A stretch of DNA of 64,000 nt from Candidatus Glassbacteria bacterium (lineage in GTDB: Bacteria > Gemmatimonadota > Glassbacteria > GWA2-58-10): contig VRUH01000006.1 of NCBI GenBank assembly GCA_019456185.1, positions 26,113-90,112 on the forward strand, read 5' to 3'. Numbering within the stretch: the stretch's first letter is position 1; every line of letters starts with the position of its first letter. A model generated the notes under the pieces. That model worked only from the letters and a program-made list of their open reading frames with translations. It did no database searches and was not told the origin of the DNA. The position numbers and the translations under genes are program-made. Positions 1,188-25,564 of the stretch are shown here, one piece after another.

Positions 1188-1427
1188 TCAATTCACCACA
1201 GGGTTGTCGTGCACGTTTCGGCCCCGGCAGTGCCAGATCCGCCGGCTTCGGTTCTGCGGGTGGTCCATATTCAGTTTCTGGTGCTGGGAGAAATAGCGCA
1301 TTGTGTAGCCGGTGCGGCGGATATCCTAGGCTAGCGGTTGGCACCGATCTCGATCCGCTCCTGTTCGCTGGGGCAGGGTCTCCACCGGGGCGCGAGTTCC
1401 CGGCACAGCCGCCACATGGTAAGGATC
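1188..1427 (-). pseudogene. Frameshifted gene fragment of unknown family
   Basis: Two consecutive high-GC3 reading frames (ILTMWRLCRELAPRWRPCPSEQERIEIGANR / DIRRTGYTMRYFSQHQKLNMDHPQNRSRRIWHCRGRNVHDNPVVN) joined by a frameshift and TAG near 1325-1335. No start or RBS. Confidence 0.35.
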
Positions 1428-1604
1428 AACTGTATCAAAGTAATTCGATTTTGATGCTCGCCTCAAATTGACAAGTGTGCAAGAAAAATAACTTGCGGCA
1501 CCGAAAAAGTTCGATTACGCTTTAAACCGGCTGGATTTCTAGTTGCCTCTTATCCAGACATTAATCTCCTGCCCAATACCTTGCCCTCGACGGAGGTTGC
1601 CGCC

Positions 1605-2918
1605 GTGACCAGACAGATCATCCTGAGTTTCTCAGCCGCGCTGATTGCTCTGGCGCTAGCGCTCTCAGCCGTCTGCTCCCAGCAGAGCCAGGCCGGTAAA
1701 ACCACGACTCCAAAAACAGTCACTGTCGCCCAGCAGGGCAAAGCCGACGTTACCGGCCGTGACAACTACGCCCTGCAGCGCGCCGCCGACATGCTCTCCC
1801 CGGGTGATACGCTCGAAATCGGTCCGGGTGAATACCTGATGGACAACGCGCTGGTCATCCCCGTCTCCGGCGTAACCGTCCGCGGCGTGCCGGGTCAGAC
1901 CGTACTGAAGAAAAAGCGCGCGGTGATGAGCCTGATTATCGAGGGCGGCGACTGGGGCGAGGATGTGTTCATTGTCGGGGAGCCGGAAAAATTCTCTGTC
2001 GGGGTTGGCGTGGCGATCCTGGACGACCGCAACCGGCAGGGCTACAGCGTGGTGACGGCCACGATCGAGGATATCCGCGGGGATACGGTGTTCACCAGCG
2101 AGCGCTCGGTCAACGACCTGAACTACGTGGACGGAAACGCCCGGCTGGAAAGTACGTTCCCGCTGCTGGCCGGTTACGAGCTGAGCGATGTCCTGATCGA
2201 GGGTATCACCGCCGACGGGAACAAGGACCAGAACCCGTTCCGTCTCGACGGCTGTCGTGGCGGAGCGATCTACCTGTTCGACTGCAAGAACGTGACTATC
2301 CGCAACTGCGTCGCCCGCAACTACAACGGCGACGGAATCTCGTGGCAGATCACCGACCGGATCACGGTGGAATCCTGCGAATCCTTCGGGCACACCGGCC
2401 TGGGACTGCATCCCGGCACCGGCAGCACCAACTCGGTGATCACCGATTCCCACTCCCACCACAACGGGATTGTGGGCCTGTTTCTGTGCTATCGGGTCCG
2501 CCTGGGCGAGTTCAGGAACAACCTGTTCGAGCACAACGGCCGCTACGGCGTCTCGATCGGCCACAAGGACTCGGACAACTTTTTTGAGAACAACGTGATC
2601 CGCAACAACGGTTTCAGCGGGGTCTATTTCCGCAAGAACCCCGAGAGAGTGGGCGGGCATCGCAACGTGTTCAAAAACAACAAGATCCTGGACAACGGCA
2701 ACGCGGAACGAGGCTATGGGGTCTATGTGGAGGCCGAGAACCAGGGCGAGGTGTTCGAGAATAACGTGATCGCCGAAACACGCACCGGCGGCGAGGCCAC
2801 CCAGCGCTACGGGGTCTATATCGTAAGGGGCACCAGCTCGGTCACTGTCGGGGACAACGAGATGAAGGGCCACTCCGAGGCGGACTGCCACGACGAGAAC
2901 TCGATGGCGCTGAACTAG
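1605..2918 (+). CDS. Secreted right-handed parallel beta-helix (pectate-lyase-like) protein
   Basis: Signal peptide, many Asn-ladder repeats (NNG..GI, ENNVI.NN). GTG at 1605 has GGAGG 8 nt upstream (the track starts at TTG 1581). Confidence 0.85.
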   Translation: MTRQIILSFSAALIALALALSAVCSQQSQAGKTTTPKTVTVAQQGKADVTGRDNYALQRAADMLSPGDTLEIGPGEYLMDNALVIPVSGVTVRGVPGQTVLKKKRAVMSLIIEGGDWGEDVFIVGEPEKFSVGVGVAILDDRNRQGYSVVTATIEDIRGDTVFTSERSVNDLNYVDGNARLESTFPLLAGYELSDVLIEGITADGNKDQNPFRLDGCRGGAIYLFDCKNVTIRNCVARNYNGDGISWQITDRITVESCESFGHTGLGLHPGTGSTNSVITDSHSHHNGIVGLFLCYRVRLGEFRNNLFEHNGRYGVSIGHKDSDNFFENNVIRNNGFSGVYFRKNPERVGGHRNVFKNNKILDNGNAERGYGVYVEAENQGEVFENNVIAETRTGGEATQRYGVYIVRGTSSVTVGDNEMKGHSEADCHDENSMALN

Positions 2919-3780: not shown

Positions 3781-6700
3781 CTATTGCCCCGGGGCTTTCT
3801 TTTCAAAGATGGAATAGACCACCGGTACCAGCACCAGGGTGATCAGCGTGGAGCTGATCAGCCCGCCGATCACCGCCCTGGCCAGCGGCACCTGCGTCTC
3901 CGCGCCCTCGCCGATCCCGAACGCCAGCGGGGTCAGGCCCAGGATCGTTGTCGCCGCGGTCATCAGGATCGGGCGCAGGCGGCGGCGGCCGGCCTCCTCG
4001 ATCGCCTCGACCAGTCCCAGCCCGTCGCGGCGGCGCAGCAGGTTGGTGTGGTCCACCAGCAGGATCGCGTTGTTGACCACGATTCCGCCGAGCATGATAC
4101 AGCCGATAAACGACTGCACGTTGAACGTGGTGCCGGTCAGGAACAGCATCAGGATCACACCCACCGCGGCCATCGGCACGGAGAACATCACCACGAACGG
4201 GTCGCGCAGGGACTCGTACTGGCAGGCCATCACCATGTAGACCAGGATCAGCGCCAGGATAAAACTCAGCATCAGCTCTTTGAACGCCTTCTGCTGCTCC
4301 TCGTAGTCGCCGGCGAACACGATACTGAAATCTCGCGGGACCGGCACGGACTCCAGCCGCTCGCGGATATCATCGATTATCGAGCCCATGTCCCGTCCGC
4401 TGATATTGGCGCTGATCAGGGCGATCCGCTCCTGGTCCTTGCGCTCGATCAGCACCGGGCCGGTCCGCGGCCGGACAGAGACCACGTTGCGCAGCACCAC
4501 CTGGCGGCCGTCGCTGTTGGTCAGAGTCAGGTCCAGCACCTCGCCCAGTTCCATCGACTCGGCGTTCTGCATCCGGACCAGGATCCGGAACTCATCGCCG
4601 CCCTCGTGGAAATAACCGGCCGAGGAGCCGGAGAGCACAGTCTGCAGCGTATTGGCGATCTGCGAGACCGACAGTTTCATGTCCGCGGCCTTCTGCCGGT
4701 CGACAATGACAAGTTCTTCGGGCACGCCCAGTTCGCGGCTGATCTGCGCGTCGGTAACTCCCCGCACGCCCTCGATAATCTTCTTGACCCTCAGGGTCAG
4801 CTCGTTGGAAATCTCCAGATCGTGGCCGCGAATCTCCACCTGGACCCGTTCGGTGCCGCCGCTGATAATTCTGAACAGGAACAGGCCCTGGCCCTCGCGG
4901 GTACGGATCGTGACCCCCGGGATATTCGCCAGTTTCTCCCTGAGCACGGCGGCGATCTCCTCGCTGGAGCGGCTCCGCTCGAACTGGGACACCAGCGCAA
5001 CCCGCATGCGGCCCGTGTGCGAACCCTCCACCCGGTAGCCGCTGCCGCCGATACTGGTGACCACGTTCTTTAGTTCAGGTACGTTCTCCCGCACTATCCG
5101 TTCGACTTCCTCGAACTTCTCATCCATCACTTCGACCCTGATGCCCACGTCCATCTCGGCGTCCACCCGCACCTCGCCCTCATCGGCCTTGGGCATGAAC
5201 TCCACGCCGATCAGCGGCACCAGGGCGAAACTGACCGCCAGGGCGCCGGCCGTAACCAGGATCACCATCAGGCGATGGTTCAGGGCGTAGTGCAGCAGGG
5301 TTTTGTATTTACTTTCCAGCTCTGCCAGCACGCCGGAACTGAAAGATGCAAACCTGTCGAACCAGCCGGTGGATTTTTGCTCATCCCGGCTGTACATGCC
5401 CAGGATTTTCGCCGACAACATCGGCACAATGGTCACCGCCACGGCCAACGAACAGAGCAGCGAAAAGCTGACCACCAGCGACAACTGCTTGAACATCACC
5501 CCGCTCATCCCGCGTACGAACACCAGCGGCAGGAACACGGCCAGCGTGGTCAGCGTACTGGCGATAATCGCTGCGGTCACCTCGGCGCTGCCCTCGACAG
5601 CCGCCTCCACCCGGCTCATTCCCGACTCCCGCAGACGGTAAATATTCTCCAGCACCACAATCGAGTTGTCGACCAGCAGCCCGATTCCCAGCGCCAGCCC
5701 GCCGATAGTCATGATATTCAGGGTGAAACCGCCGAAATAAATCAGCGCGAACGTGGCGATAATCGAGACCGGGATCGCGGTGGCGATCACGATGGTGCTG
5801 CGGAAGCTGCGCAGGAAGAACAGCAGGACAATGATGGCCAGGATGCCGCCGTACATCGCCATCGAACCGACATTTGAGATCGACTTGGTGATATATTCGC
5901 TGGTGTCGATAATGGGCGTGATCTTGATCTGCGGGATTTCCTCGTTCAGCCGCTCGATTTCCTCCAGCACGCCGCGCGCTACCTCGACTGTGTTTGTGCC
6001 GGACTGCTTGCGCACCCCCAGACGGACGCCGTTCTTGCCGTTTACCCTCACGATCCGGGTGACGCGTTCCCAGGAATCTTCCACGCTGGCGATTTCGGCC
6101 AGCCGCACCGAAGCGCCATCGCGGAGGACGATTATCGTGTTACGGATCTGGTCGATATCGGTGAAATGTCCCGGAGTGCGGATTGTGACCTCGTACTGGC
6201 CGCGGTCGATTGTGCCGGAGGGCATATTGATATTCTCCGCCCGCAGCCTCCTCAATATCAGGCTCACGGGGATACCCAGCGCCTTGACCTTGTCGGCGTA
6301 GAGGTTGACATGGATTTCCCGTTTCAGGCCGCCCCAGATATCCAGTGCGGCCACGCCCGGCATGCGCTCGATCCGGTACTTGATCCGGTCCTCGATAATC
6401 TGGCGCATCTGCACGGGATCGAGATTACTCGACGCTCCCAGGATCAGGACCGGGAAACTGGCCAGGTCGAATTTGCGCAGGGTGGGACGGTCGGCGTCCT
6501 CGGGGAGCTGATCGACAATCCGGTCCAGGCGGTCGCGGATGTCGTTGGCCCCGGCGTCGATATCAACGCCCCAGGTGAAAGTCACCCGCACGCGGGTGCG
6601 CCCCTCGGATGAAATAGATGTCACCTCTTCCACGCCCGGCACCGAGCCCACGGCTTCCTCGATCGGGCGGGTGATCAGCTCCTCCATCTCCTCGGCGCTG

Positions 6701-18117: not shown

Positions 18118-18153
18118 AAAAAAAAGGCCTGCCGGTTTCGGCAGGCTTTTTTT
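18118..18153. terminator. Bidirectional terminator closing the sel cluster
   Basis: A8-GGCCTGCCG-gttt-CGGCAGGC-T7, immediately after the stop at 18166. Confidence 0.85.
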
Positions 18154-18165
18154 CAAGATGACAGG

Positions 18166-19248
18166 CTAGTTTACCTTCTGCCAGTCGTGACTCTCCACAT
18201 CGAAAACAAATTTCACTTTTACTTCGTCCGGAATGTAGCACTTCTTGTCATCGCAGGCCTGATAGCCGAACGTACCCTCGATTACGAGGTTTTCGATTGA
18301 CGGAGCGTTATCCTGATCGCTGACACGCAGGTTTTTCTGGGTGCCGATCACGACTTCCTGCATGAAGCGGAATGAGCCGGAATAGGACGCCAACTCCTCG
18401 TCCAGCGCCTCCATTCTGATAATCTCCGCCTCGGGAAAGCGTGTTTCGAGACCCTTGTAGTACCGGGACTCTTTCAACTGCCAGGAAACCGGGATATATC
18501 CGCCTTCCACCTCCGGCGCATAGACATGCATCCTGTCTTTGAGGTGCACGTCGAAAATCAGCGTGATATGGTTGCCGGCACGGACCTCTGTCTGGCTGGC
18601 CCGGTATTCCAGGGTGAACGCGTTGGTTTCGAGCCTGCCCACCGGGATGTCGGGAGACCAGCCGAACTGCTGTATCAGCACTGATTCCTGGGTCACCCGC
18701 TCCCAGTAATTCTCCAGGAAAATCTTCTGTTGAACGACCTGGTCCGGACCGACAAGATACTGGCCTGGATGGGCGATCCCGTAGTTGCGATGATCTTTCG
18801 GAATGGTCTGGTTGATAATCCCGAACGCGTCGATCACTTCGTAGCCCGGATCGGCCAGCAGCGGAACCGCGATATTCTTCCGCGTGGCGAACTTGTTCAG
18901 TATCTCCGGTGTGTCCCGGCTGATCGCGCAGATTCCGAGACCCCGTTTCCGATATTCATCTTTAAGGTTTTCGAGCTCCACGAGCTGCGTTTTGCAGTAG
19001 CCTCACCAGTCCGCCGAACGGTAGAACAGGATCAGCAGACCGTTCGGCCCCGCCAGTGAACCAAAATCCTGTATCCTGCCGTTCTGGTCGGGCAGGCTGA
19101 ATGACGGTATTTTATCACCGACTTCCGGGCCAGACTGGCTTGCGCTGTCCTGGGCGTACAATGCGCCTCCATCCTCAGAGCATATCGCAGCCGATGCCGC
19201 AAACAGCAATATCAGCATTGGCAGAAAGAACAAAGCGGCTTTTCTCAT
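18166..19248 (-). CDS. Selenoprotein: exported AhpC/TSA (redoxin)-fold domain with a UxxC motif plus a DsbD-alpha-like domain (360 aa, Sec82)
   Basis: Track ORFs 19003..19248 and 18166..18981 are in frame across TGA 19003-19005, giving FYRSADW-U-GY-C-KTQL. Signal peptide, GGAG RBS, SECIS-like hairpin, C-terminal YQACDDKKCYIP. Confidence 0.9.
18972..19002 (-). promoter_or_regulatory. SECIS-like hairpin of the AhpC/TSA-fold selenoprotein
   Basis: CG(C)AGCUC-GUG-GAGCUCG; the G-initiated loop starts 22 nt after the UGA. Confidence 0.7.
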
Positions 19249-19361
19249 GGCTCTCCTCTCAGCGATTGGTCCAGTACCGGATTCCGTAACTGCATCTGTG
19301 TTGTCGAGCCAAATTAAGCTTTTTCCGCTTGCTGTGCAACACCATGCTTTGCGGGAAAAAT

Positions 19362-19459
19362 TGGCGGGAGCGCGTGAGAATCGAACTCACCGCGGACAGT
19401 ATTAGTGCCCGCCACCGGATTTGAAGTCCGGGAGGCACACCAGTTACCCATCCGCCCCC
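19362..19459 (-). tRNA. selC: tRNA-Sec (anticodon UCA)
   Basis: 98 nt. CCGGA-CUUCAAA-UCCGG anticodon arm, long variable arm GCGGGCA/UGUCCGC, T-arm GUGAG-UUCGAUU-CUCAC, G73 discriminator, encoded CCA; directly downstream of selD. Confidence 0.95.
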
Positions 19460-19491: not shown

Positions 19492-20550
19492 TTATTTGAC
19501 CACGGCGATTCTCCCGGGATTCTCAGCGCTGACCCGGCCGATTACGGCAGCCTCGCGGTCTCCTTCCCGGTGCAGGGCCGCCAGCAACTCCTCGGCGGTC
19601 TCGGGCGCGATAGAGATCAGCAGGCCGCCGGAGGTCTGGGCGTCGAAAAAGATCATCCGCTCGTGCTCGCTCACATCCGGGCTGAAACTGACCACGCTCT
19701 CGAGAAATTCCTTGTTTTTGGACGTCCCGCCGGAGATAAACCCCGACTGCATGGTCCGGGCCAGCGCTTCCGGCAGATACGGTATCGCCCCGGCGTCCAG
19801 AGTCAGCCCCACTCCGCTGCCCCTGGCGACCTCGTGGGCGTGGCCCAGCAGGCCGAACCCGCTAACATCCGTGGCCGCGTGGGCCCCGAACGACACCATC
19901 AGCTCCGAGGCCGTCCTGTTCAAGCGGACCATAATCGAGGTGATCCGCCCGATCTCTTCATCGGTGAGCTTGCCGGCTTTCAGCGCCGTGGTCATGATTC
20001 CCATGCCGAGCGGCTTGGTCAGGATCAGCGTGTCGCCGGGACGGGCGGTGGAGTTGCGGACAAATTTCTGCGGGTGGACCGTGCCGGTAAGCGCCAGGCC
20101 GAACTTCAGCTCCTCGTCCTTGATCGTGTGCCCGCCCACGATCGGGCAGCCGGCCTCGGCGGCTTTATCAGTGGCACCGCGGATTATCTCGGCGATTGTT
20201 TCCAGATCGACTTTCTTTTCCGAGAAGCCGACGATATTCAGCGCGGTAACAGGCTTGCCGCCCATGGCGTAGATGTCGCTGAGCGAATTGGCGGCCGCGA
20301 TCTGGCCGTACTGGTAGGGATCATCGACCAGCGGCGTGATCACGTCCACCGTATTGACCAGGGCCAGCTCATCGCTCAGACGATACACTCCGCCGTCATC
20401 CGCGGTGCTGGTATCGACCAGCAGGTTCGGATCCGAGACAGGCGGCAGCATTTGCATCAGCTTGCTTAACTCCGTTAAGCTCAGCTTGGCCAGTCAACCG
20501 GCGCTGGCGACCAGCTCTGTCAGCCGCTTTCTTTTGTTCTTGTGGAACAT
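19492..20550 (-). CDS. selD: Selenide, water dikinase (selenophosphate synthetase), Sec-containing (U19)
   Basis: Frame extends through TGA 20494-20496 to ATG 20550 (GGAG RBS): MFHKNKRKRLTELVASAG-U-LAK. Also DDGGVY, NSLSDIYAMGG, GGHT, ATDVSGFGL and DAQTSGGLL. Confidence 0.95.
20458..20493 (-). promoter_or_regulatory. SECIS-like hairpin of selD
   Basis: AGCU-GA-GCUUAAC-GGA-GUUAAGC-A-AGCU: perfect 7-bp upper stem, G-initiated loop 21 nt after the UGA. Confidence 0.85.
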
Positions 20551-20616
20551 CCGGTTTCTCCCCGATTGCTTCATTCGAATCGCCACAACCGGTTAAAGTG
20601 ACAATGGCGGCAACCG

Positions 20617-22530
20617 TTACGTTTCTCTCAGCCGCCTGATATTTCCGCTGCGTTCGGTCAGACCGCGCTGGTCGAAATGAATCAGCAGCGGTGTTGCGTA
20701 TTTACGCGAGCAGCCGATCTTCTCGCGGAATTCCGACACCCTAATCTCACCATTTTGCCGTAATAATTCAACCAGAACCTTTTCCGCCTTTTCCACGGCG
20801 CTGCGGTGGAAAATCACCCGCTTGTCCGCTTCCGGCATGATTTCAACCAGCCGGCCCATCTCGATCAGTCCCCGGACGATATCCGCTGCTCTCTGCTCGC
20901 CAAGCTCCTGAAACCGTCCGGCCACATCCCTCAGCGACGGGGTCGTGAAACCGGCCCGGCTGTAGAGATCCTCGATTCCGGCCGCAGGCTCCCTGTCCCG
21001 CACGCTGAATTCGACAGCGTGGCCCTCCAGCGCGATCGCCTCGCCCCGCAGCACAGCCTGACCGCTGGCCGTCAACATCCGCAGGACAACCTCCCAGGCC
21101 GCGGAATCGGCATTTTCCAGCAATTTACTTTTCAGCTCCGACTGCTTGATTCCGTTCAGATACGGGTTTTGTTCATGGAAACTTTCCAGATATTCAACCG
21201 CCCTGCGGCATACTTTTTCCAACTCCCCGGTCAGCATTACCGCTTTGACGGTTTTCCGCCCGAGTCCTGTCAGAACTCCCTCGCCCAGCAGCTGTTCCAC
21301 GGTTTCGCGCACGCGGTTTTCCGGCAGAGCCAGTGCCCGGCTCAACTGTCCGGTTGTTTTCGGCGCCAGGGGCGTCGAGGCCAGGTGGTGCAGAATCAGC
21401 CGGTCGGCTCCGGCCTGCTCCAGCTCCTCGAGCTGCTGGATATCCCGCGCCCCCAGATATTTCAGTTTCTCGGGGTGCACCTCCAGGATCGTCCCGCCGC
21501 CGATCGTGACCGGAGGCGAGTAACTGCGGATGATAAACCTGTCGCCGGTATCGGCAGCCACCGGTTCCTCAAGCCTGAACTGCACCACAGTCGCCTCCCC
21601 CGGCGCAACCGCTTTCCCAACCAGCGGCACAACCCTGGCCAGCAGTTCCCGGCAGCCGAGGTGAAGCCTGATTCTGGTCCTGTTCTTCAGTGGCTGAGCG
21701 CTTTCGAGCAGGTACAGCCTGGCGTTGACCATACAGGTGGGCGAAAAATAACCGGGGCTGGCCAGCATGTCGCCGCGCTCGACCTCATCCCGCTCGACAC
21801 CTGTCAGGTTGATCGCCGCACGCTGACCCACGCCGCTCTCGGCTACCTCCTCATTATGCACCTGAATTTTTCGCGCCCTGACCTCTCTGCCCCGCGGCAG
21901 CAGCTCCAGCCTGTCGCCGGCGCGCAGGCTGCCGGCCAGGACAGTGCCGGTGACAACATTGCCGATCCCCTTGAGGACAAACGATCTGTCGATCCAGTAA
22001 CGGAAGATACCCTTGTCATCCCTGGCCGGGGCTTCGCGAATCTCCTGCTCCAGCACCGCCCGGAACTCCGCAATCCCCTCCCCTGTCCGGCTGGAGAGGC
22101 ACACAACCGGCGCATCCTTGAGGAGCGTACCGGCCACGAACGCTGAGACTTCCTCTTTGACCAGCTCCAGCCAGTCCCGGTCGACGAGGTCGATCTTGGT
22201 CAGCGCAATAATCCCGCGACGGACATCCAGCAGGCGCAGGATGTCGAAATGCTCCCGGGTCTGGGACATGATCCCGTCATCGGCGGCGATTACCAGGATC
22301 ACCGAATCGATAGTGGTAATGCCGGCCAGCATGTTTTTGATAAACTTCTCGTGCCCCGGCACATCGATTATGCTCACGTCGGGTCCGTAGAACACGTAAC
22401 CCAGATCGATAGTCATGCCGCGCAGCTTTTCCTCCGGCAGCCTGTCCGCGTCGATATCAGTCAGGGCTTTGAGCAGCATGGTCTTGCCGTGGTCGATATG
22501 GCCGGCGGTGCCGATAATCGTGTGTTTCAT
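20617..22530 (-). CDS. selB: Selenocysteine-specific elongation factor
   Basis: [19 protein letters not shown] and [12 protein letters not shown] motifs; C-terminal winged-helix [11 protein letters not shown]; 637 aa. Confidence 0.97.
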
Positions 22531-24020
22531 CCGGGTGAATTCCTGCCTGGCCGGGCTGGGTGGTTGCCGTCAGCCGATTTCACGGGCTTGCTCCGGCAGT
22601 TTTTTAAGGCTCCGCCAACAAGCCCGGCGAGCGTATCCGTCTCGCGGGGATGGACCGTGCGCAGGTCCAGCAGGTAACGGTCCTCGGCAATCCGGCCGAA
22701 TACGGGCGGATCGCCCAGCCGCAGACGGCGCGCAAGCTCGTCGGCGGAAACCCGCTCACCGCCGATAGCCACCAGACGGGTCGGGATTCCGCAGGCCGGC
22801 ATCGCACCGCTGCCCATCTGCGATTCACCGTCGATTATCTCAAGCTTGATACTATCGCCTGCTTCCGGGCGCACAGCTTCGATAAACTTCTTTGCCCGTT
22901 GTTCCAGTTCCTCCACACCGGCGGCTGCCATCCGCAGGACGGGCAACTGATCGAACAGCACCTTCTCATCCAGGAAAAGTTTCAGGGTGGCCTCCAGCGC
23001 CGCGTAGACCATTTTATCGCAGCGCAGGGCGCGGCTGAGAGGGTTGTTTTTCAGCATGTCCACGTATTTTTTCCGGCCCACCGCGATACCGCACTGAGGA
23101 CCACCGAGCAGCTTGTCTCCGCTGAAAGTGACCACGTCCGCGCCGTCGCGGATACTCTGAACGACCACGGGTTCCGGCGGCAAACCGTAGCCCGTGAAAT
23201 CCAGCAGGCAGCCGCTGCCGATATCATGGACAAGCGGCAGAGTGCGGGAGTCGCAGAGCGGTTTCAATTCCGCAAGGGGGACCTCGCTGGTAAAACCCCT
23301 GATCCGGTAGTTACTGGGGTGGACTGTCTGCACCAGCGCCGTACGCTCGGCGATCGCTTTTTCATAGTCGGCGAGGTGGGTCCTGTTGGTGGTGCCGACC
23401 TCGATCATTTCCGCGCCGCTGAGGCGCATCACGTCCGGCATCCTGAACGATCCGCCGATCTCCACCAACTGGCCCCTGGAAACCAGCACCTCCCGCTGGT
23501 CGGCCAGCGTATTGAGCACCAGCAGGACCGCGGCGGCATTATTGTTGACCACGATCGCAGCCTCGGCGCCGGTCAGCAGGCGGAGCAGTTCCTCGACATG
23601 GGCATGACGGCTGCCGCGCCTGCCCGAGGCCACATCGATCTCCAGCGTGCAGTAATTCTCCACCGCCCGGGCCAGTGCATCCCTGGCCGTATCGGCCAAC
23701 GGCGCCCTGCCCAGACCGGTATGCAGGATAATCCCGGTGGCATTGATCGCCGGGCCGAGACCGGGACGGGATTTAGCGCGAACCCGCCGGGCAACCTCGC
23801 ACGCGACAGAGCCGGCGGACAGATCGATAGCAGCCGGCTGATCCGCAGGAGCCGCCAGGACCGTGTCGCGCAATTCCTGCAGGACTGCCTTGATTGTCTC
23901 TTTGACCAGCCGCTTGGGAAATTGCTCGCCGAGAAGCTGAATCACCGGGTTGGCGAGCATTCTCGTGGTGCTGACAATATCTTTCAGCATCAGCTTTCCG
24001 GCCGCTGAATCGTGTTCCAT
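22527..24020 (-). CDS. selA: L-seryl-tRNA(Sec) selenium transferase
   Basis: [49 protein letters not shown] (PLP Lys). Stop overlaps the selB ATG (ATGA). Start at 24020 (or 23990) is inferred. Confidence 0.96.
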
Positions 24021-24050
24021 CCCCGCATTTCCTTTCCAGAGAGCCGCCAC

Positions 24051-24104: not shown

Positions 24105-25514
24105 CTACTGCGAGCTGTTGATTTCGATCCTGACCGGGATGTCCTGCCGGCGGTACAGGCAGGTGCCGTTGAGATCCTCGCAGACGTAATACAGTGAATA
24201 CGCCGGAACGACAACCGTGCCCCCGGCGTTTTCCGGGCATTTGATTTCGAATTCGAGCCTGCGGGTCTCCTGGCTGACCGGTTCCGGAGGTATGGGCACT
24301 GTCAGGTGACGGTTATCGACCTGCCACCCGTCCGGCGTGTCAATCCAGAAAACCAGGTCCTCCATCTCGTTGTTCCAGTGCGCCTTCTGTGACAGGTCCG
24401 GCCGGAGCACGACATGCACGCGGCCTGTTTCTCCCGGCGCCAGCGTTCCCGGCACGACAGTCACCTCGGCCCTGATCAGCCTCCGCTCATCGCGGAATAT
24501 CCGCCCATCGGGGTCCGGACTCCGCAGCTCGGTCCCGCCGGCCTCGAACGACTCGGACGGGTAGGCGAACTCAGCGCCTCCGGGTTCCACCCGCAGGACC
24601 GAGGGCGTCTCGCCCCTGGCTTCGATCTCCCGCCTGGCCTGGTTGACCCAGTCGTAAAACGAATAGGGCTTATCCAGCCTGGGGCCGTACTGCTGGATCC
24701 GACGTCGCCAGATATACTGGTTCGGGTCGAGCTCCAGCGCCCTGCCCCAGTGGGAGATTGCAGCTTCGAAATCACCCTCCCGGCGATAATCCGAATCGTA
24801 GCGCGCGCGGTAAGCGGCGCCCAGCCGGAAGTGGGTCGGGCCGTGGTCCGGTTCCAGCTCAACCGCCTCGCGGTAGGCCTCGACAGCCCTGTCCAGCGCT
24901 TCATCCCCGCCCCAGAGGACCAGGGAGGCGGCGTAATTCCGCTGGTTGTCGGCGCTCCGGCCCGCATGCTCCTGAAGCCGGGCGAGATCGGGAGCTTCGG
25001 CCCGGACCGGCACCGGCCGTGTCGAGCCGACATAGTCTGTTTCCAGAAATCGGCTGTACTCTTCGTCGCTGGGACGAAGCGCGCGTACGATACCCTGTTC
25101 ATCGATCAGGGCCGTAATCGGCACCGCCAGCACTTCGAGCAGGTTTTGCCGGTCGACCAGGATCGGCCAGTCCATCTGCTGCCACTGCATGAACAGGCGG
25201 GCCCTGTGGGGATGCTGTTCCTGGATGATCCCCACCATCTTGACGCGGCCCGCTGCCCTGTCTTCCTCGGTTTTTTTGTGCCACCCGGGCACGTGCTTGC
25301 GGCAGCCCGCTCACCAGGATGCGAAGATATGCAGCACGAGTTTCTGGCCGCGGTAAGCCGCCACCGAGAGCGGCCGGCCGTCATCGAGCGACGGGAACGG
25401 CAGGTCGGGGAACGGCTCGCCGACAGCGATCCGGGGAGCACCCGCGACAAACGACGTCATCCCCAAAAGCAGTGTCGAGAGCAGGACCACCGCGATCCTG
25501 AGAACATCTGTCAT
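24105..25514 (-). CDS. Selenoprotein: exported TlpA/redoxin domain with a UxxC motif, TPR region and DsbD-alpha-like C-terminal domain (469 aa, Sec68)
   Basis: Track ORFs 25311..25583 and 24105..25292 are in frame across TGA 25311-25313, giving HIFASW-U-AG-C-RKH. GGAGG before ATG 25514; TPR-like AVEAYREAVELEPDHGPTHFRLG; C-terminal YYVCEDLNGTCLY. Confidence 0.9.
25278..25310 (-). promoter_or_regulatory. SECIS-like hairpin of the TlpA-like selenoprotein
   Basis: GUGCC-CGGGU-GGCAC; the loop starts 24 nt after the UGA with G at position 2. Confidence 0.65.
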
Positions 25515-25564
25515 ATCGGCCTCCACAGCCATGTAATACCACTCCGTGATGTCTGAGTTGCATT

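What the first reader, a model, noticed from the sequence alone, without database searches (positions are those of the whole stretch)
18166..19248. Hidden selenoprotein 1: AhpC/TSA-fold W-U-G-Y-C plus DsbD-alpha, immediately downstream of tRNA-Sec
The ORF track splits it into 81-aa and 271-aa ORFs. The TGA at 19003-19005 lies exactly at the first Cys of the redoxin CxxC (RSADW-U-GYC-KTQL), the downstream part has no convincing own start (GTG seven codons after the UGA), and a G-loop hairpin follows. A standard pipeline would call it a pseudogene or two hypothetical proteins.
Basis: partly seen in the sequence, partly recalled or inferred. Interest (0 to 1): 0.78.

Follow-up and report, generated by a model that had tools for sequence, protein, structure and literature searches.

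The report
Split gene is a known-type selenoprotein
The two short reading frames are really one gene for an exported redox enzyme that uses selenocysteine in place of a cysteine, a member of a selenoprotein family first predicted in 2006 that gene callers still cut in two.

Summary
On the minus strand, 19248..18166 is one 360-codon frame broken only by TGA at 19005..19003. That codon sits on the first Cys of RSADW-C-xx-CK in every full-length homologue. All 8 metagenome loci fetched for short-called homologues, and 78 of the 80 best genome loci, carry TGA at this column, so it is neither an assembly error nor a pseudogene. A short hairpin 14-15 nt after the UGA, with a GUN loop, covaries across 86 sequences and is weaker in 6 Cys forms. 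In the window's own clade its seven codons are frozen at synonymous sites. tRNA-Sec and selD, selB, selA lie directly upstream. The protein has a signal-peptide-like N-terminus, an AhpC/TSA-fold redoxin domain with U-x-x-C, and a DsbD-alpha-like C-terminal domain with invariant YQACDDKxCY. It lacks the peroxiredoxin Pro and Arg, so it reads as a thiol-disulfide oxidoreductase, not a peroxidase. It is not new as a kind: a Solibacter usitatus homologue (41% identity over nearly the full length) was listed as a "Prx-like thiol:disulfide oxidoreductase" selenoprotein by Zhang et al. 2006. I saw no mention of the DsbD-alpha domain or the placement in the sel gene cluster in the passages I read. Function is inferred and untested.

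The parts
18166..19248 (-). Complete selenoprotein coding sequence. 360 codons: ATG 19248, Sec codon 82, stop TAG 18168..18166.
   Evidence: Single frame with one internal TGA. Both sides are conserved in homologues.
19253..19257 (-). Shine-Dalgarno-like AGGAG, 5 nt upstream of the ATG.
   Evidence: Sequence read.
19183..19248 (-). Signal-peptide-like N-terminus (about residues 1-22): MRK, an 18-residue hydrophobic core, then ASA|A.
   Evidence: Kyte-Doolittle mean of 2.3-2.6 over residues 3-23. Residues 1-33 have pLDDT below 50. Homologues have similar N-termini. No SignalP run was possible.
18727..19122 (-). AhpC/TSA (redoxin, thioredoxin-fold) domain, residues 43-174.
   Evidence: Pfam PF00578 at 3.4e-26 and PF08534 at 6.9e-15. 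PDB profile hits to AhpE, ResA and BCP. Foldseek TM-score 0.75-0.80 relative to BCP and AhpE.
19003..19005 (-). UGA read as selenocysteine (U82), the first position of the U-G-Y-C redox motif at the N-terminus of helix 84-94.
18994..18996 (-). Cys85, the resolving partner in U-x-x-C. It sits at the position of the peroxiredoxin peroxidatic Cys.
   Evidence: Alignment to M. tuberculosis AhpE. Present in every aligned sequence that covers this column.
18972..18989 (-). SECIS-like hairpin beginning 14 nt after the UGA: C-G, G-C, a bulged C, 5 bp AGCUC/GAGCU, and apical loop GUG (the Val90 codon).
   Evidence: Fold of -6.7 kcal/mol. Covariation across 86 sequences. Weaker in the Cys forms. Seven codons frozen at synonymous sites.
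18214..18612 (-). DsbD-alpha-like (DsbD_N, immunoglobulin-like) domain, residues 213-345.
   Evidence: Pfam PF11412 at 3.4e-05 and 24.3 bits for the domain alone, against a cutoff of 25. All 36 family members match at E <= 0.01, the best at 7.5e-11. The domain model (pLDDT 91.7) has E. coli and Neisseria nDsbD and ScsB-N as its top 7 PDB hits.
18238..18255 (-). Invariant Cys332-x4-Cys337 within YQACDDKKCY, the presumed second redox centre.
   Evidence: Q330 A331 C332 D333 D334 C337 are invariant in 31 and in 36 sequences.
18118..18146 (-). Intrinsic terminator: an 8-bp GC-rich stem plus a T-run, 19 nt after the stop codon.
19362..19459 (-). tRNA-Sec (selC), anticodon UCA.
   Evidence: ARAGORN. 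Rfam RF01852 at 70.4 bits.
19492..20574 (-). selD, which has its own in-frame TGA at 20496..20494. Start is ATG 20574 or 20550.
   Evidence: TIGR00476 at 9.1e-105, with the match starting at model position 33. The upstream frame reads ASAG-U-LAKLS.
20617..22530 (-). selB, the Sec-specific elongation factor.
   Evidence: TIGR00475 at 2.6e-101, and the SelB winged-helix Pfam domains.
22527..24050 (-). selA, the selenocysteine synthase.
   Evidence: TIGR00474 at 1e-165.

Best explanation
One gene (19248..18166, minus strand) encodes an exported two-domain selenoprotein.

**Decoding (inferred).** SelB bound to Sec-tRNA(Sec) reads UGA-82 as selenocysteine. It is directed by a short hairpin that starts 14 nt downstream and carries a GUG apical loop. 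The whole Sec machinery (selA, selB, selD, selC) lies directly upstream on the same strand. No terminator-like site was found between selD and the gene, and a terminator follows the gene, so all may form one transcript.

**Protein.** After Sec-pathway export, the N-terminal AhpC/TSA-fold domain presents a thioredoxin-type W-U-G-Y-C centre at the start of helix 1. The C-terminal domain is a DsbD-alpha-type beta-sandwich with an invariant C-x4-C pair.

**Most likely function (inferred).** It acts as an envelope thiol-disulfide (selenylsulfide) reductase. Electrons would come from an unlinked membrane CcdA, DsbD-beta or ScsB-type transporter, pass to the alpha-like Cys pair, then to the U-x-x-C centre, and finally to oxidised envelope substrates. 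Sec supplies the stronger nucleophile.

**Shown versus inferred.** Shown here: the gene structure, recurrent and conserved Sec coding, RNA-level constraint on the hairpin, the domain identities, and the absence of the peroxiredoxin catalytic residues. Inferred: Sec insertion itself, export, the direction of electron flow and the substrates.
For: - **Single frame:** one internal TGA, a Shine-Dalgarno motif only before ATG 19248, and none before GTG 18981.
- **Cys at the column:** full-length homologues have RSADWCxxCK there.
- **Recurrence:** TGA sits at that column in L001-L008 and in 78 of 80 genome loci. These are mainly Bryobacterales and other Acidobacteriota; a Gemmatimonadales MAG is the closest, at 62% identity.
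- **Standard code:** TGA is an ordinary stop in 7 of 14 Pfam-confirmed genes of the window.
- **Hairpin covariation:** 89.6% of cells are paired against 16-41% when the partner is slid. 40 cells changed on both sides against 15.0 +/- 2.9 in shuffles (0 of 500 shuffles reach it). Pair 24-34 is G-C in 61 sequences and A-U in 20, with one unpaired.
- **Cys-form contrast:** Sec forms keep a mean of 6.25 of 7 pairs (n=87); Cys forms keep 3.8 of 7 (n=6).
- **Frozen codons:** in the window's clade, the 7 hairpin codons are identical in all six sequences. Only 15 of 116 conserved-residue columns are identical gene-wide, and this is the only such run of 7 among 110 windows.
- **Sec machinery:** tRNA-Sec, selD, selB and selA lie adjacent. 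The arrangement recurs in L003 and L009, and tRNA-Sec is also upstream in L001.
- **Fold:** the full-length model has pLDDT 87.7 and pTM 0.83, with U82 at the N-terminus of helix 84-94. The N-domain matches BCP, AhpE and ResA. The C-domain matches nDsbD and ScsB-N.
- **Not a peroxidase:** U82 aligns with the peroxiredoxin Thr, and C85 with the peroxidatic Cys. The Arg column is Pro161, which is nearly invariant in the family.
- **Terminator:** one follows the gene.
- **Prior listing:** the S. usitatus homologue is listed as a selenoprotein.
- **Precedent:** exported Prx-fold proteins are kept reduced by alpha-domain-bearing transporters (PMC3322552).
Against: - There are no protein-level data. 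Sec insertion is inferred.
- The window's own hairpin is short (5 + 2 bp, -6.7 kcal/mol). In a 60-71 nt context it is no more stable than shuffled sequence (z = +0.47 and +1.05). Its support is comparative only.
- No Rfam family matches it.
- The DsbD_N match of the window protein itself is just below Pfam's cutoff (21.3 and 24.3 bits against 25). phmmer against PDB finds nothing for that domain.
- No CcdA or DsbD-beta partner gene is conserved next to the family. The window was only partly scanned for one.
- The Cys-form control has only 6 sequences, and one of them (L092) keeps 5 of 7 pairs.
Confidence: 0.85

Rival explanations
1. The protein is a true selenocysteine peroxiredoxin. It would reduce H2O2 or organic peroxides directly in the envelope, with the DsbD-alpha-like domain acting as its built-in reductant.
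For: The best Pfam and PDB matches are AhpC/TSA, BCP/PrxQ and AhpE. A periplasmic peroxiredoxin fed through a DsbD-family transporter is known, PprX in Caulobacter (PMC3322552). Some homologues lie behind ECF sigma/NrsF stress regulators. A selenol can react with peroxides without the peroxiredoxin catalytic residues (my own knowledge).
Against: The peroxiredoxin signature PxxxTxxC is not present. The Pro position is Ser78, the Thr position is U82, and the catalytic Arg column is a nearly invariant Pro161. The motif W-C/U-x-x-C with an opposing Pro is the signature of TlpA/ResA/CcmG-type oxidoreductases. The known Sec peroxiredoxins carry TxxU, not UxxC (PMC1088965). A Prx-like exported protein lacking these residues, PrxL, showed no peroxidase activity.
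Confidence: 0.12
2. The TGA is a true stop. The locus would be a pseudogene, an assembly error, or two separate small genes.
For: Gene callers output two ORFs here and in all related loci. The single-sequence hairpin is thermodynamically unremarkable.
Against: The same TGA is present in 86 independent loci from many assemblies and lineages, with strong conservation of the reading frame on both sides. The 81-aa piece would hold only the first strands of the thioredoxin fold, and the 271-aa piece would lack its active-site motif and a ribosome-binding site. The hairpin is under RNA-level selection. The Sec machinery is adjacent.
Confidence: 0.02
3. The C-terminal DsbD-alpha-like domain is not an electron relay. 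It would be a substrate- or partner-binding (or metal-binding) module with a structural disulfide, and the U-x-x-C domain would be reduced directly by some other envelope reductant.
For: No membrane DsbD-beta or CcdA gene is linked. The Cys spacing is C-x4-C, and I recall C-x5-C for E. coli DsbD-alpha (own knowledge, not tested). Fold similarity is moderate, with TM-score 0.58-0.62 and rmsd 5-10 A. In a subclade the neighbours include copper-related bufferin operons.
Against: The Cys pair and its flanking YQAC-DD-x-C-Y are invariant across 36 diverse members, as expected for an active site. The only known role of this domain type is thiol-disulfide exchange with thioredoxin-fold partners (PMC3322552 abstract).
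Confidence: 0.2

Closest known systems
Prx-like thiol:disulfide oxidoreductase selenoprotein family (PF00578, UxxC; listed in Zhang et al. 2005 PMC1088965, Zhang et al. 2006 PMC1794560 and the 2026 review PMC13188914)
   Same: AhpC/TSA fold, with a thioredoxin-like U-x-x-C instead of the peroxiredoxin T-x-x-U. The Solibacter usitatus member printed in Additional file 4 of PMC1794560 has the same RSADWUPYCKTQLVELE and YQACDDKKCY motifs. It is 41% identical to the window protein over nearly the full length, E 9e-91.
   Different: The other listed members (Geobacter, Desulfotalea, Rubrobacter) do not show the YQACDDKxC motif in the sequence stretches shown. I did not scan them for the domain. The DsbD-alpha fusion therefore looks like a subfamily. 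In the passages I read, the papers do not comment on the extra domain, export or operon context. The function of the family has never been tested.
TlpA / ResA / CcmG-type extracytoplasmic thiol-disulfide oxidoreductases
   Same: Thioredoxin fold with W-C-x-x-C at the start of helix 1 and a conserved Pro opposite, exported, and reductive in role. ResA structures are among the best PDB matches. NCBIfam ResA scores 4.2e-13.
   Different: Scores are far below the family cutoffs (49.6 bits against 170). Sec replaces the nucleophilic Cys. A DsbD-alpha-like domain is fused. No link to cytochrome c maturation genes was seen.
DsbD alpha domain (nDsbD) and the ScsB alpha domain
   Same: Immunoglobulin-like beta-sandwich with a conserved Cys pair near the C-terminal strands. 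The top seven PDB fold hits are 1l6p, 3pfu, 1vrs, 5nhi, 6c29 and 6dnv. Pfam DsbD_N matches all 36 family members.
   Different: The domain here is C-terminal to a soluble redoxin domain and is not attached to a membrane beta domain. The Cys spacing is C-x4-C. Sequence similarity is weak, and the window protein is just under Pfam's cutoff.
Peroxiredoxins BCP/PrxQ and AhpE
   Same: The best structural matches for the N-domain, with TM-score 0.75-0.80 relative to the target.
   Different: The defining Pro, Thr and Arg are replaced by Ser78, Sec82 and Pro161. This is not a member.
NCBIfam selenoprotein models NF041054 (WAxxUGC_long), NF040769 (SelL-related), NF053656 (TUGYCR) and NF040737 (PrxU)
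   Same: Redoxin-fold selenoproteins with Sec in or near a CxxC-type motif.
   Different: All score far below their cutoffs: 33.4/300, 33.4/120, 19.5/100 and 17.4/270 bits. No model in that library passes its cutoff for this family, which is consistent with its being split into two ORFs in an NCBI assembly.

Membership tests
Prx-like thiol:disulfide oxidoreductase selenoproteins | AhpC/TSA (PF00578) fold | tested here: met
   PF00578 at 3.4e-26 and 92.1 bits, against a cutoff of 26. Fold hits.
Prx-like thiol:disulfide oxidoreductase selenoproteins | Thioredoxin-like U-x-x-C motif, with U at the column where the peroxiredoxins have Thr | tested here: met
   W-U-G-Y-C. In the AhpE alignment, U aligns with Thr and C85 with the peroxidatic Cys. 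The family description is in PMC1088965.
Prx-like thiol:disulfide oxidoreductase selenoproteins | Cys-containing homologues with Cys aligned to Sec | tested here: met
   All 18 full-length homologues in A1 have Cys at the column. Six Cys-form loci were confirmed at the DNA level as TGC or TGT.
Prx-like thiol:disulfide oxidoreductase selenoproteins | Bacterial SECIS-like stem-loop just downstream of the UGA, with G in a small apical loop | tested here: met
   The hairpin starts 14-15 nt after the UGA with loop GUN. Covariation, the Sec-versus-Cys contrast, and frozen codons. In the window sequence alone it is weak.
Prx-like thiol:disulfide oxidoreductase selenoproteins | Homology to a listed member | tested here: met
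   41% identity and E 9e-91 over residues 11-358 to the S. usitatus sequence printed under that heading.
Prx-like thiol:disulfide oxidoreductase selenoproteins | Actual selenium incorporation | not testable with these tools
   Needs 75Se labelling or mass spectrometry.
Peroxiredoxin (Prx) proper | PxxxTxxC active-site motif | tested here: not met
   The sequence is S78-A-D-W-U82-G-Y-C85. Pro is replaced by Ser and Thr by Sec.
Peroxiredoxin (Prx) proper | Conserved catalytic Arg | tested here: not met
   The AhpE Arg116 column aligns with Pro161, which is nearly invariant in the family.
DsbD alpha (DsbD_N, PF11412) domain | Match to the family profile | tested here: inconclusive
   The window protein scores 21.3 bits (whole protein) and 24.3 bits (domain alone) against a cutoff of 25. 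All 36 of 36 family members match at E <= 0.01, the best at 7.5e-11.
DsbD alpha (DsbD_N, PF11412) domain | Immunoglobulin-like fold of nDsbD | tested here: met
   The domain model has pLDDT 91.7. PDB hits 1-7 are nDsbD or ScsB-N, with E 9e-06 to 2e-04 and TM-score 0.58-0.62 relative to the target (0.41 for the longer ScsB-N).
DsbD alpha (DsbD_N, PF11412) domain | Redox-active Cys pair at the position of E. coli Cys103/Cys109 | tested here: inconclusive
   An invariant C332-x4-C337 exists, and the Pfam match spans profile positions 6-115 of 119. I did not obtain a residue-level alignment to E. coli DsbD, and phmmer against PDB found nothing.
DsbD alpha (DsbD_N, PF11412) domain | Electron transfer from a membrane beta domain | not testable with these tools
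   No linked beta or CcdA gene was found. This needs redox-state assays.
TlpA/ResA/CcmG oxidoreductases | Score above the family cutoff | tested here: not met
   ResA subfamily model scores 49.6 bits against 170.

The most novel reading that the evidence does not exclude
The DsbD-alpha-fused form would be a distinct, self-contained envelope electron relay: CcdA-type transporter to alpha-like C-x4-C, then to the Sec-x-x-Cys redoxin, then to substrate. It is the predominant form in Bryobacterales and other Acidobacteriota, where 78 of the 80 best genome loci are Sec forms.

In the window's lineage it would be one of the main clients of the Sec machinery. It is transcribed as the last gene of a selA-selB-selD(U)-selC unit that is flanked on the other side by a second exported redoxin selenoprotein candidate. 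That would make this 7.4-kb stretch a dedicated 'selenium island' for envelope redox defence. In a subclade the family comes under ECF sigma/NrsF stress control.
Probability: 0.3. Interest if true: 0.5.

Novelty: new member of a known kind. Interest (0 to 1): 0.3.

Why it matters
**Annotation.** This widespread gene is still systematically split. Every public gene call I retrieved gives two ORFs, and no model in the NCBIfam library scanned here passes its cutoff for it. That affects at least the 78 genomes seen here.

**Biology.** The family is a predicted exported Sec-dependent oxidoreductase that appears never to have been characterised. It is very common in soil Acidobacteriota. Its fusion to a DsbD-alpha-type domain offers a simple, testable model of how selenium chemistry is used in the oxidising cell envelope.

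**What it does not change.** It does not alter what is known about Sec decoding or the catalogue of selenoprotein kinds.

Tried and rejected
- **Single-sequence folding.** Folding 60-71 nt after the UGA gave no significant structure (z = +1.05 and +0.47). The hairpin became convincing only comparatively.
- **RNAalifold.** It recovered only the 4 central pairs, with weak energy.
- **Rfam.** It has no matching SECIS family. Its weak Thr and Phe leader hits at 18118..18181 fall on the terminator region and are well below their gathering scores.
- **phmmer against PDB.** The C-terminal domain found nothing.
- **Whole-protein fold search.** It was swamped by Prx hits, so the C-domain had to be modelled separately.
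- **Neighbour clustering.** Across 92 loci there was no universally conserved partner gene. RibH and NusB neighbours are clade-specific housekeeping genes.
- **GC3-based scan for TGA-split ORFs.** It was noisy. It did not even pass the target gene at the chosen threshold. It surfaced selD and the 25313 candidate among many gene-boundary artefacts.
- **Second candidate's C-terminus.** hhalign against the family profile was not significant (probability 0.75%, E 0.075).
- **ORF at 1335..2918.** The TGA-preceded ORF there shows no redox motif and was not pursued.
- **Interdomain distance.** I could not measure the Sec-Cys distance between domains because model coordinates are not exposed.
Full report
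**1. The observation**

On the minus strand the ORF list gives an 81-aa ORF (19248..19003) and a 271-aa ORF (18981..18166) in the same frame. Translating 19248..18166 yields 360 codons with a single internal stop. That stop is TGA at 19005..19003, in the context LFYRSADW-*-GYCKTQLVELE.

ATG 19248 is preceded by AGGAG at a 5-nt spacing. GTG 18981 is preceded by GCAAAACGCAGCTC, which has no comparable purine-rich motif.

tRNA-Sec lies at 19459..19362 on the same strand (ARAGORN; Rfam RF01852 at 70.4 bits against a gathering score of 47). Upstream of it come selD, selB and selA (TIGR00476 at 9e-105, TIGR00475 at 3e-101, TIGR00474 at 1e-165).

TGA is an ordinary stop for 7 of 14 Pfam-confirmed genes in the window, so the genetic code is standard.

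**2. Is the TGA real and coding?**

A search of the protein collection found two classes of homologues. One class is 345-380 aa long. The other is 271-278 aa long and starts immediately after the TGA column.

In the alignment, all 18 full-length homologues have RSADW-C-x-x-C-K, with Cys exactly at the window's TGA. I fetched DNA for seven of the short homologues, which gave eight loci, L001-L008. Every locus has an in-frame TGA at that column, preceded by a conserved reading frame (GP.G...F.RSADW) that the gene callers had output as a separate 25-89 aa ORF.

A scan of one genome per species returned 80 loci. Of these, 78 carry TGA at the column and 2 carry TGC. The carriers are mostly Bryobacterales and other Acidobacteriota MAGs. 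The closest genome-resolved relative is a Gemmatimonadales MAG at 62% identity.

An assembly error, a pseudogene or two independent genes cannot explain 86 independent occurrences with conservation on both sides.

**3. The recoding signal**

All Sec-form sequences can form a hairpin that starts 14-15 nt after the UGA. It has a 5-7 bp stem and a GUN apical loop, which is the Val codon that the ORF finder took as a start.

On an ungapped alignment of 86 sequences, the 7-pair stem has these properties:
- 89.6% of cells form standard pairs, against 16-41% when the 3' partner is slid by 1-3 columns.
- 40 cells changed on both sides, against 15.0 +/- 2.9 in shuffles (0 of 500 shuffles reach it).
- Pair 24-34 switches between G-C (61 sequences) and A-U (20 sequences) with only one unpaired case. 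It does so through a synonymous Gln third position and a Leu first position.
- Two sequences (L035, L072) changed the peptide (TEVVDL) yet kept a stem.

Six Cys-form loci keep on average 3.8 of 7 pairs, against 6.25 of 7 in 87 Sec-form sequences.

In the window's own clade (window, L001, L003, L004, L005, L009) the stem is C-G, G-C, a bulged C, then AGCUC/GAGCU. The seven codons T87-E93 are codon-identical in all six sequences. Only 15 of 116 columns with a conserved degenerate residue are codon-identical gene-wide, and this is the only run of seven among 110 windows.

The caveats are these:
- The window's hairpin is weak on its own (-6.7 kcal/mol).
- It is no better than shuffles in a longer context.
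- RNAalifold recovers only four pairs.
- Rfam has no matching model.

**4. What the protein is**

*N-terminus.* Residues 1-22 are MRK plus an 18-residue hydrophobic core ending ASA|A. They are disordered in the model. This looks like a signal peptide, but SignalP was not available.

*N-terminal domain.* Residues 43-174 match AhpC/TSA (3.4e-26) and Redoxin. The AlphaFold model (pLDDT 87.7, pTM 0.83) places U82 at the N-terminus of helix 84-94. It superposes on BCP/PrxQ, AhpE and ResA.

In the profile alignment to M. tuberculosis AhpE, U82 takes the place of the peroxiredoxin Thr and C85 that of the peroxidatic Cys. The catalytic Arg116 column is Pro161, which is nearly invariant in the family. 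The motif's Pro is Ser78. The protein therefore fails the peroxiredoxin definition. It has the W-C-x-x-C plus opposing-Pro signature of TlpA/ResA/CcmG-type oxidoreductases.

*C-terminal domain.* Residues 213-345 match Pfam DsbD_N weakly (24.3 bits against a cutoff of 25). All 36 of 36 family members match at E <= 0.01, the best at 7.5e-11. A separate model of this domain (pLDDT 91.7) has E. coli and Neisseria nDsbD and the ScsB N-terminal domain as its top seven PDB hits. The motif Y-Q-A-C-D-D-x-x-C-Y is invariant.

**5. Context**

No terminator-like site and no sigma-70-like promoter were found between selD, selC and the gene. A strong intrinsic terminator follows the stop codon (18146..18118). 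Co-transcription with the sel genes is therefore plausible but inferred.

The same selA-selB-selD-selC-gene order recurs in L003 and L009. tRNA-Sec is also upstream in L001.

In other clades the neighbourhood differs. About 8-13 of 92 loci, including both Sec and Cys forms, have an ECF sigma factor and an NrsF-type anti-sigma factor immediately upstream. Sometimes these sit beside a BufA1/MbnB/HvfC/DoxX operon. NrsF-type systems respond to metal and hypochlorite stress in the envelope (titles and abstracts of PMC3511200 and PMC4436054). No DsbD-beta or CcdA gene is conserved nearby.

**6. Mechanism**

The best-supported reading is an exported selenylsulfide/disulfide reductase with two redox centres. 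Precedent exists: exported Prx-fold and thioredoxin-fold proteins are kept reduced by the alpha domains of DsbD and ScsB (PMC3322552). Here an alpha-like domain is fused to the redoxin.

I infer this electron path: membrane transporter, then C332/C337, then U82/C85, then substrate. A direct peroxidase role is the main rival. The missing Prx residues argue against it, as does the UxxC motif where the known Sec peroxiredoxins have TxxU.

**7. Comparison with what is known**

The 2006 survey by Zhang et al. prints a Solibacter usitatus sequence under "Prx-like thiol:disulfide oxidoreductase" (PMC1794560, Additional file 4). It reads ...FYRSADWUPYCKTQLVELE...YQACDDKKCYTPE.... It is 41% identical to the window protein over residues 11-358, E 9e-91. 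The 2026 review still lists that family as "predicted with high confidence", PF00578, UxxC.

The kind is therefore known, and the two-domain acidobacterial form was already catalogued. The following appear unremarked in the passages I read:
- the DsbD-alpha identity of the C-terminal half;
- the predominance of the Sec form in Acidobacteriota genomes;
- the placement inside the sel gene cluster;
- the continuing mis-annotation.

On the last point, all NCBIfam selenoprotein models score far below their cutoffs, and an NCBI assembly carries the gene as two ORFs.

**8. Verdict**

The finding is a correct call of a real selenoprotein gene that ORF finders split. It is a new member of a known, uncharacterised selenoprotein family. 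Interest is modest at 0.3.

Noticed in passing
window 19492..20574 (-), TGA at 20496..20494: selD is itself split by an in-frame TGA (...RLTELVASAG-U-LAKLSLTEL...). The called ORF starts at model position 33 of TIGR00476. A 7-bp hairpin with loop GGA lies 16 nt after the UGA. Sec-type SelD is a well-known selenoprotein.
   Followed up: partly
window 24105..25532 (-), TGA at 25313..25311: A second split redoxin gene lies directly upstream of selA, with motif HIFASW-U-AGC-RKH. It has a signal-like N-terminus, a Redoxin/AhpC-TSA domain (about 3-4e-11) and TPR repeats. Its best NCBIfam match is the selenoprotein model NF041054 (WAxxUGC_long) at 77.7 bits, far below the cutoff of 300. A 5-bp hairpin with loop CGGGU lies 21 nt after the UGA. 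Its C-terminus carries YYVCEDLNGTCLY, which resembles the YQACDDKKCY motif, but hhalign was not significant. The sel genes are thus flanked on both sides by candidate exported redoxin selenoproteins.
   Followed up: partly
L007, L008, L010, L016, L019, L085, L089, L090, L091, L092 (upstream of the homologue): In one subclade the homologue, in both Sec and Cys forms, lies immediately downstream of an ECF sigma factor and an NrsF-type anti-sigma factor. In L091 and L092 a BufA1/MbnB/HvfC/DoxX (bufferin-type) operon is adjacent. This hints at regulation by envelope metal or oxidant stress.
   Followed up: partly
L022, TGA codons at 5060 and 6145: Two tandem Sec-form paralogues of the family sit in one Solibacteraceae MAG contig, each with its own TGA and hairpin.
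   Followed up: no
P0006, P0007, P0009 (610-617 aa): Some homologues are about twice as long yet cover 89-90% of the query at 33-38% identity. This suggests a larger fusion architecture built on the same two domains.
   Followed up: no
L035, L036, L072 (hairpin region): These Sec forms have a different peptide after the CxxC (CKTEVVDLN) but keep a stem of different sequence (GAGGU...ACCUC) at the same distance from the UGA. This is a natural compensatory variant of the recoding hairpin.
   Followed up: partly
window 18981..18979 (-): The GTG that ORF finders take as the start of the 271-aa ORF is the apical-loop triplet of the recoding hairpin. This explains why every public gene call for Sec forms of this family starts at or just after the same place.
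   Followed up: yes
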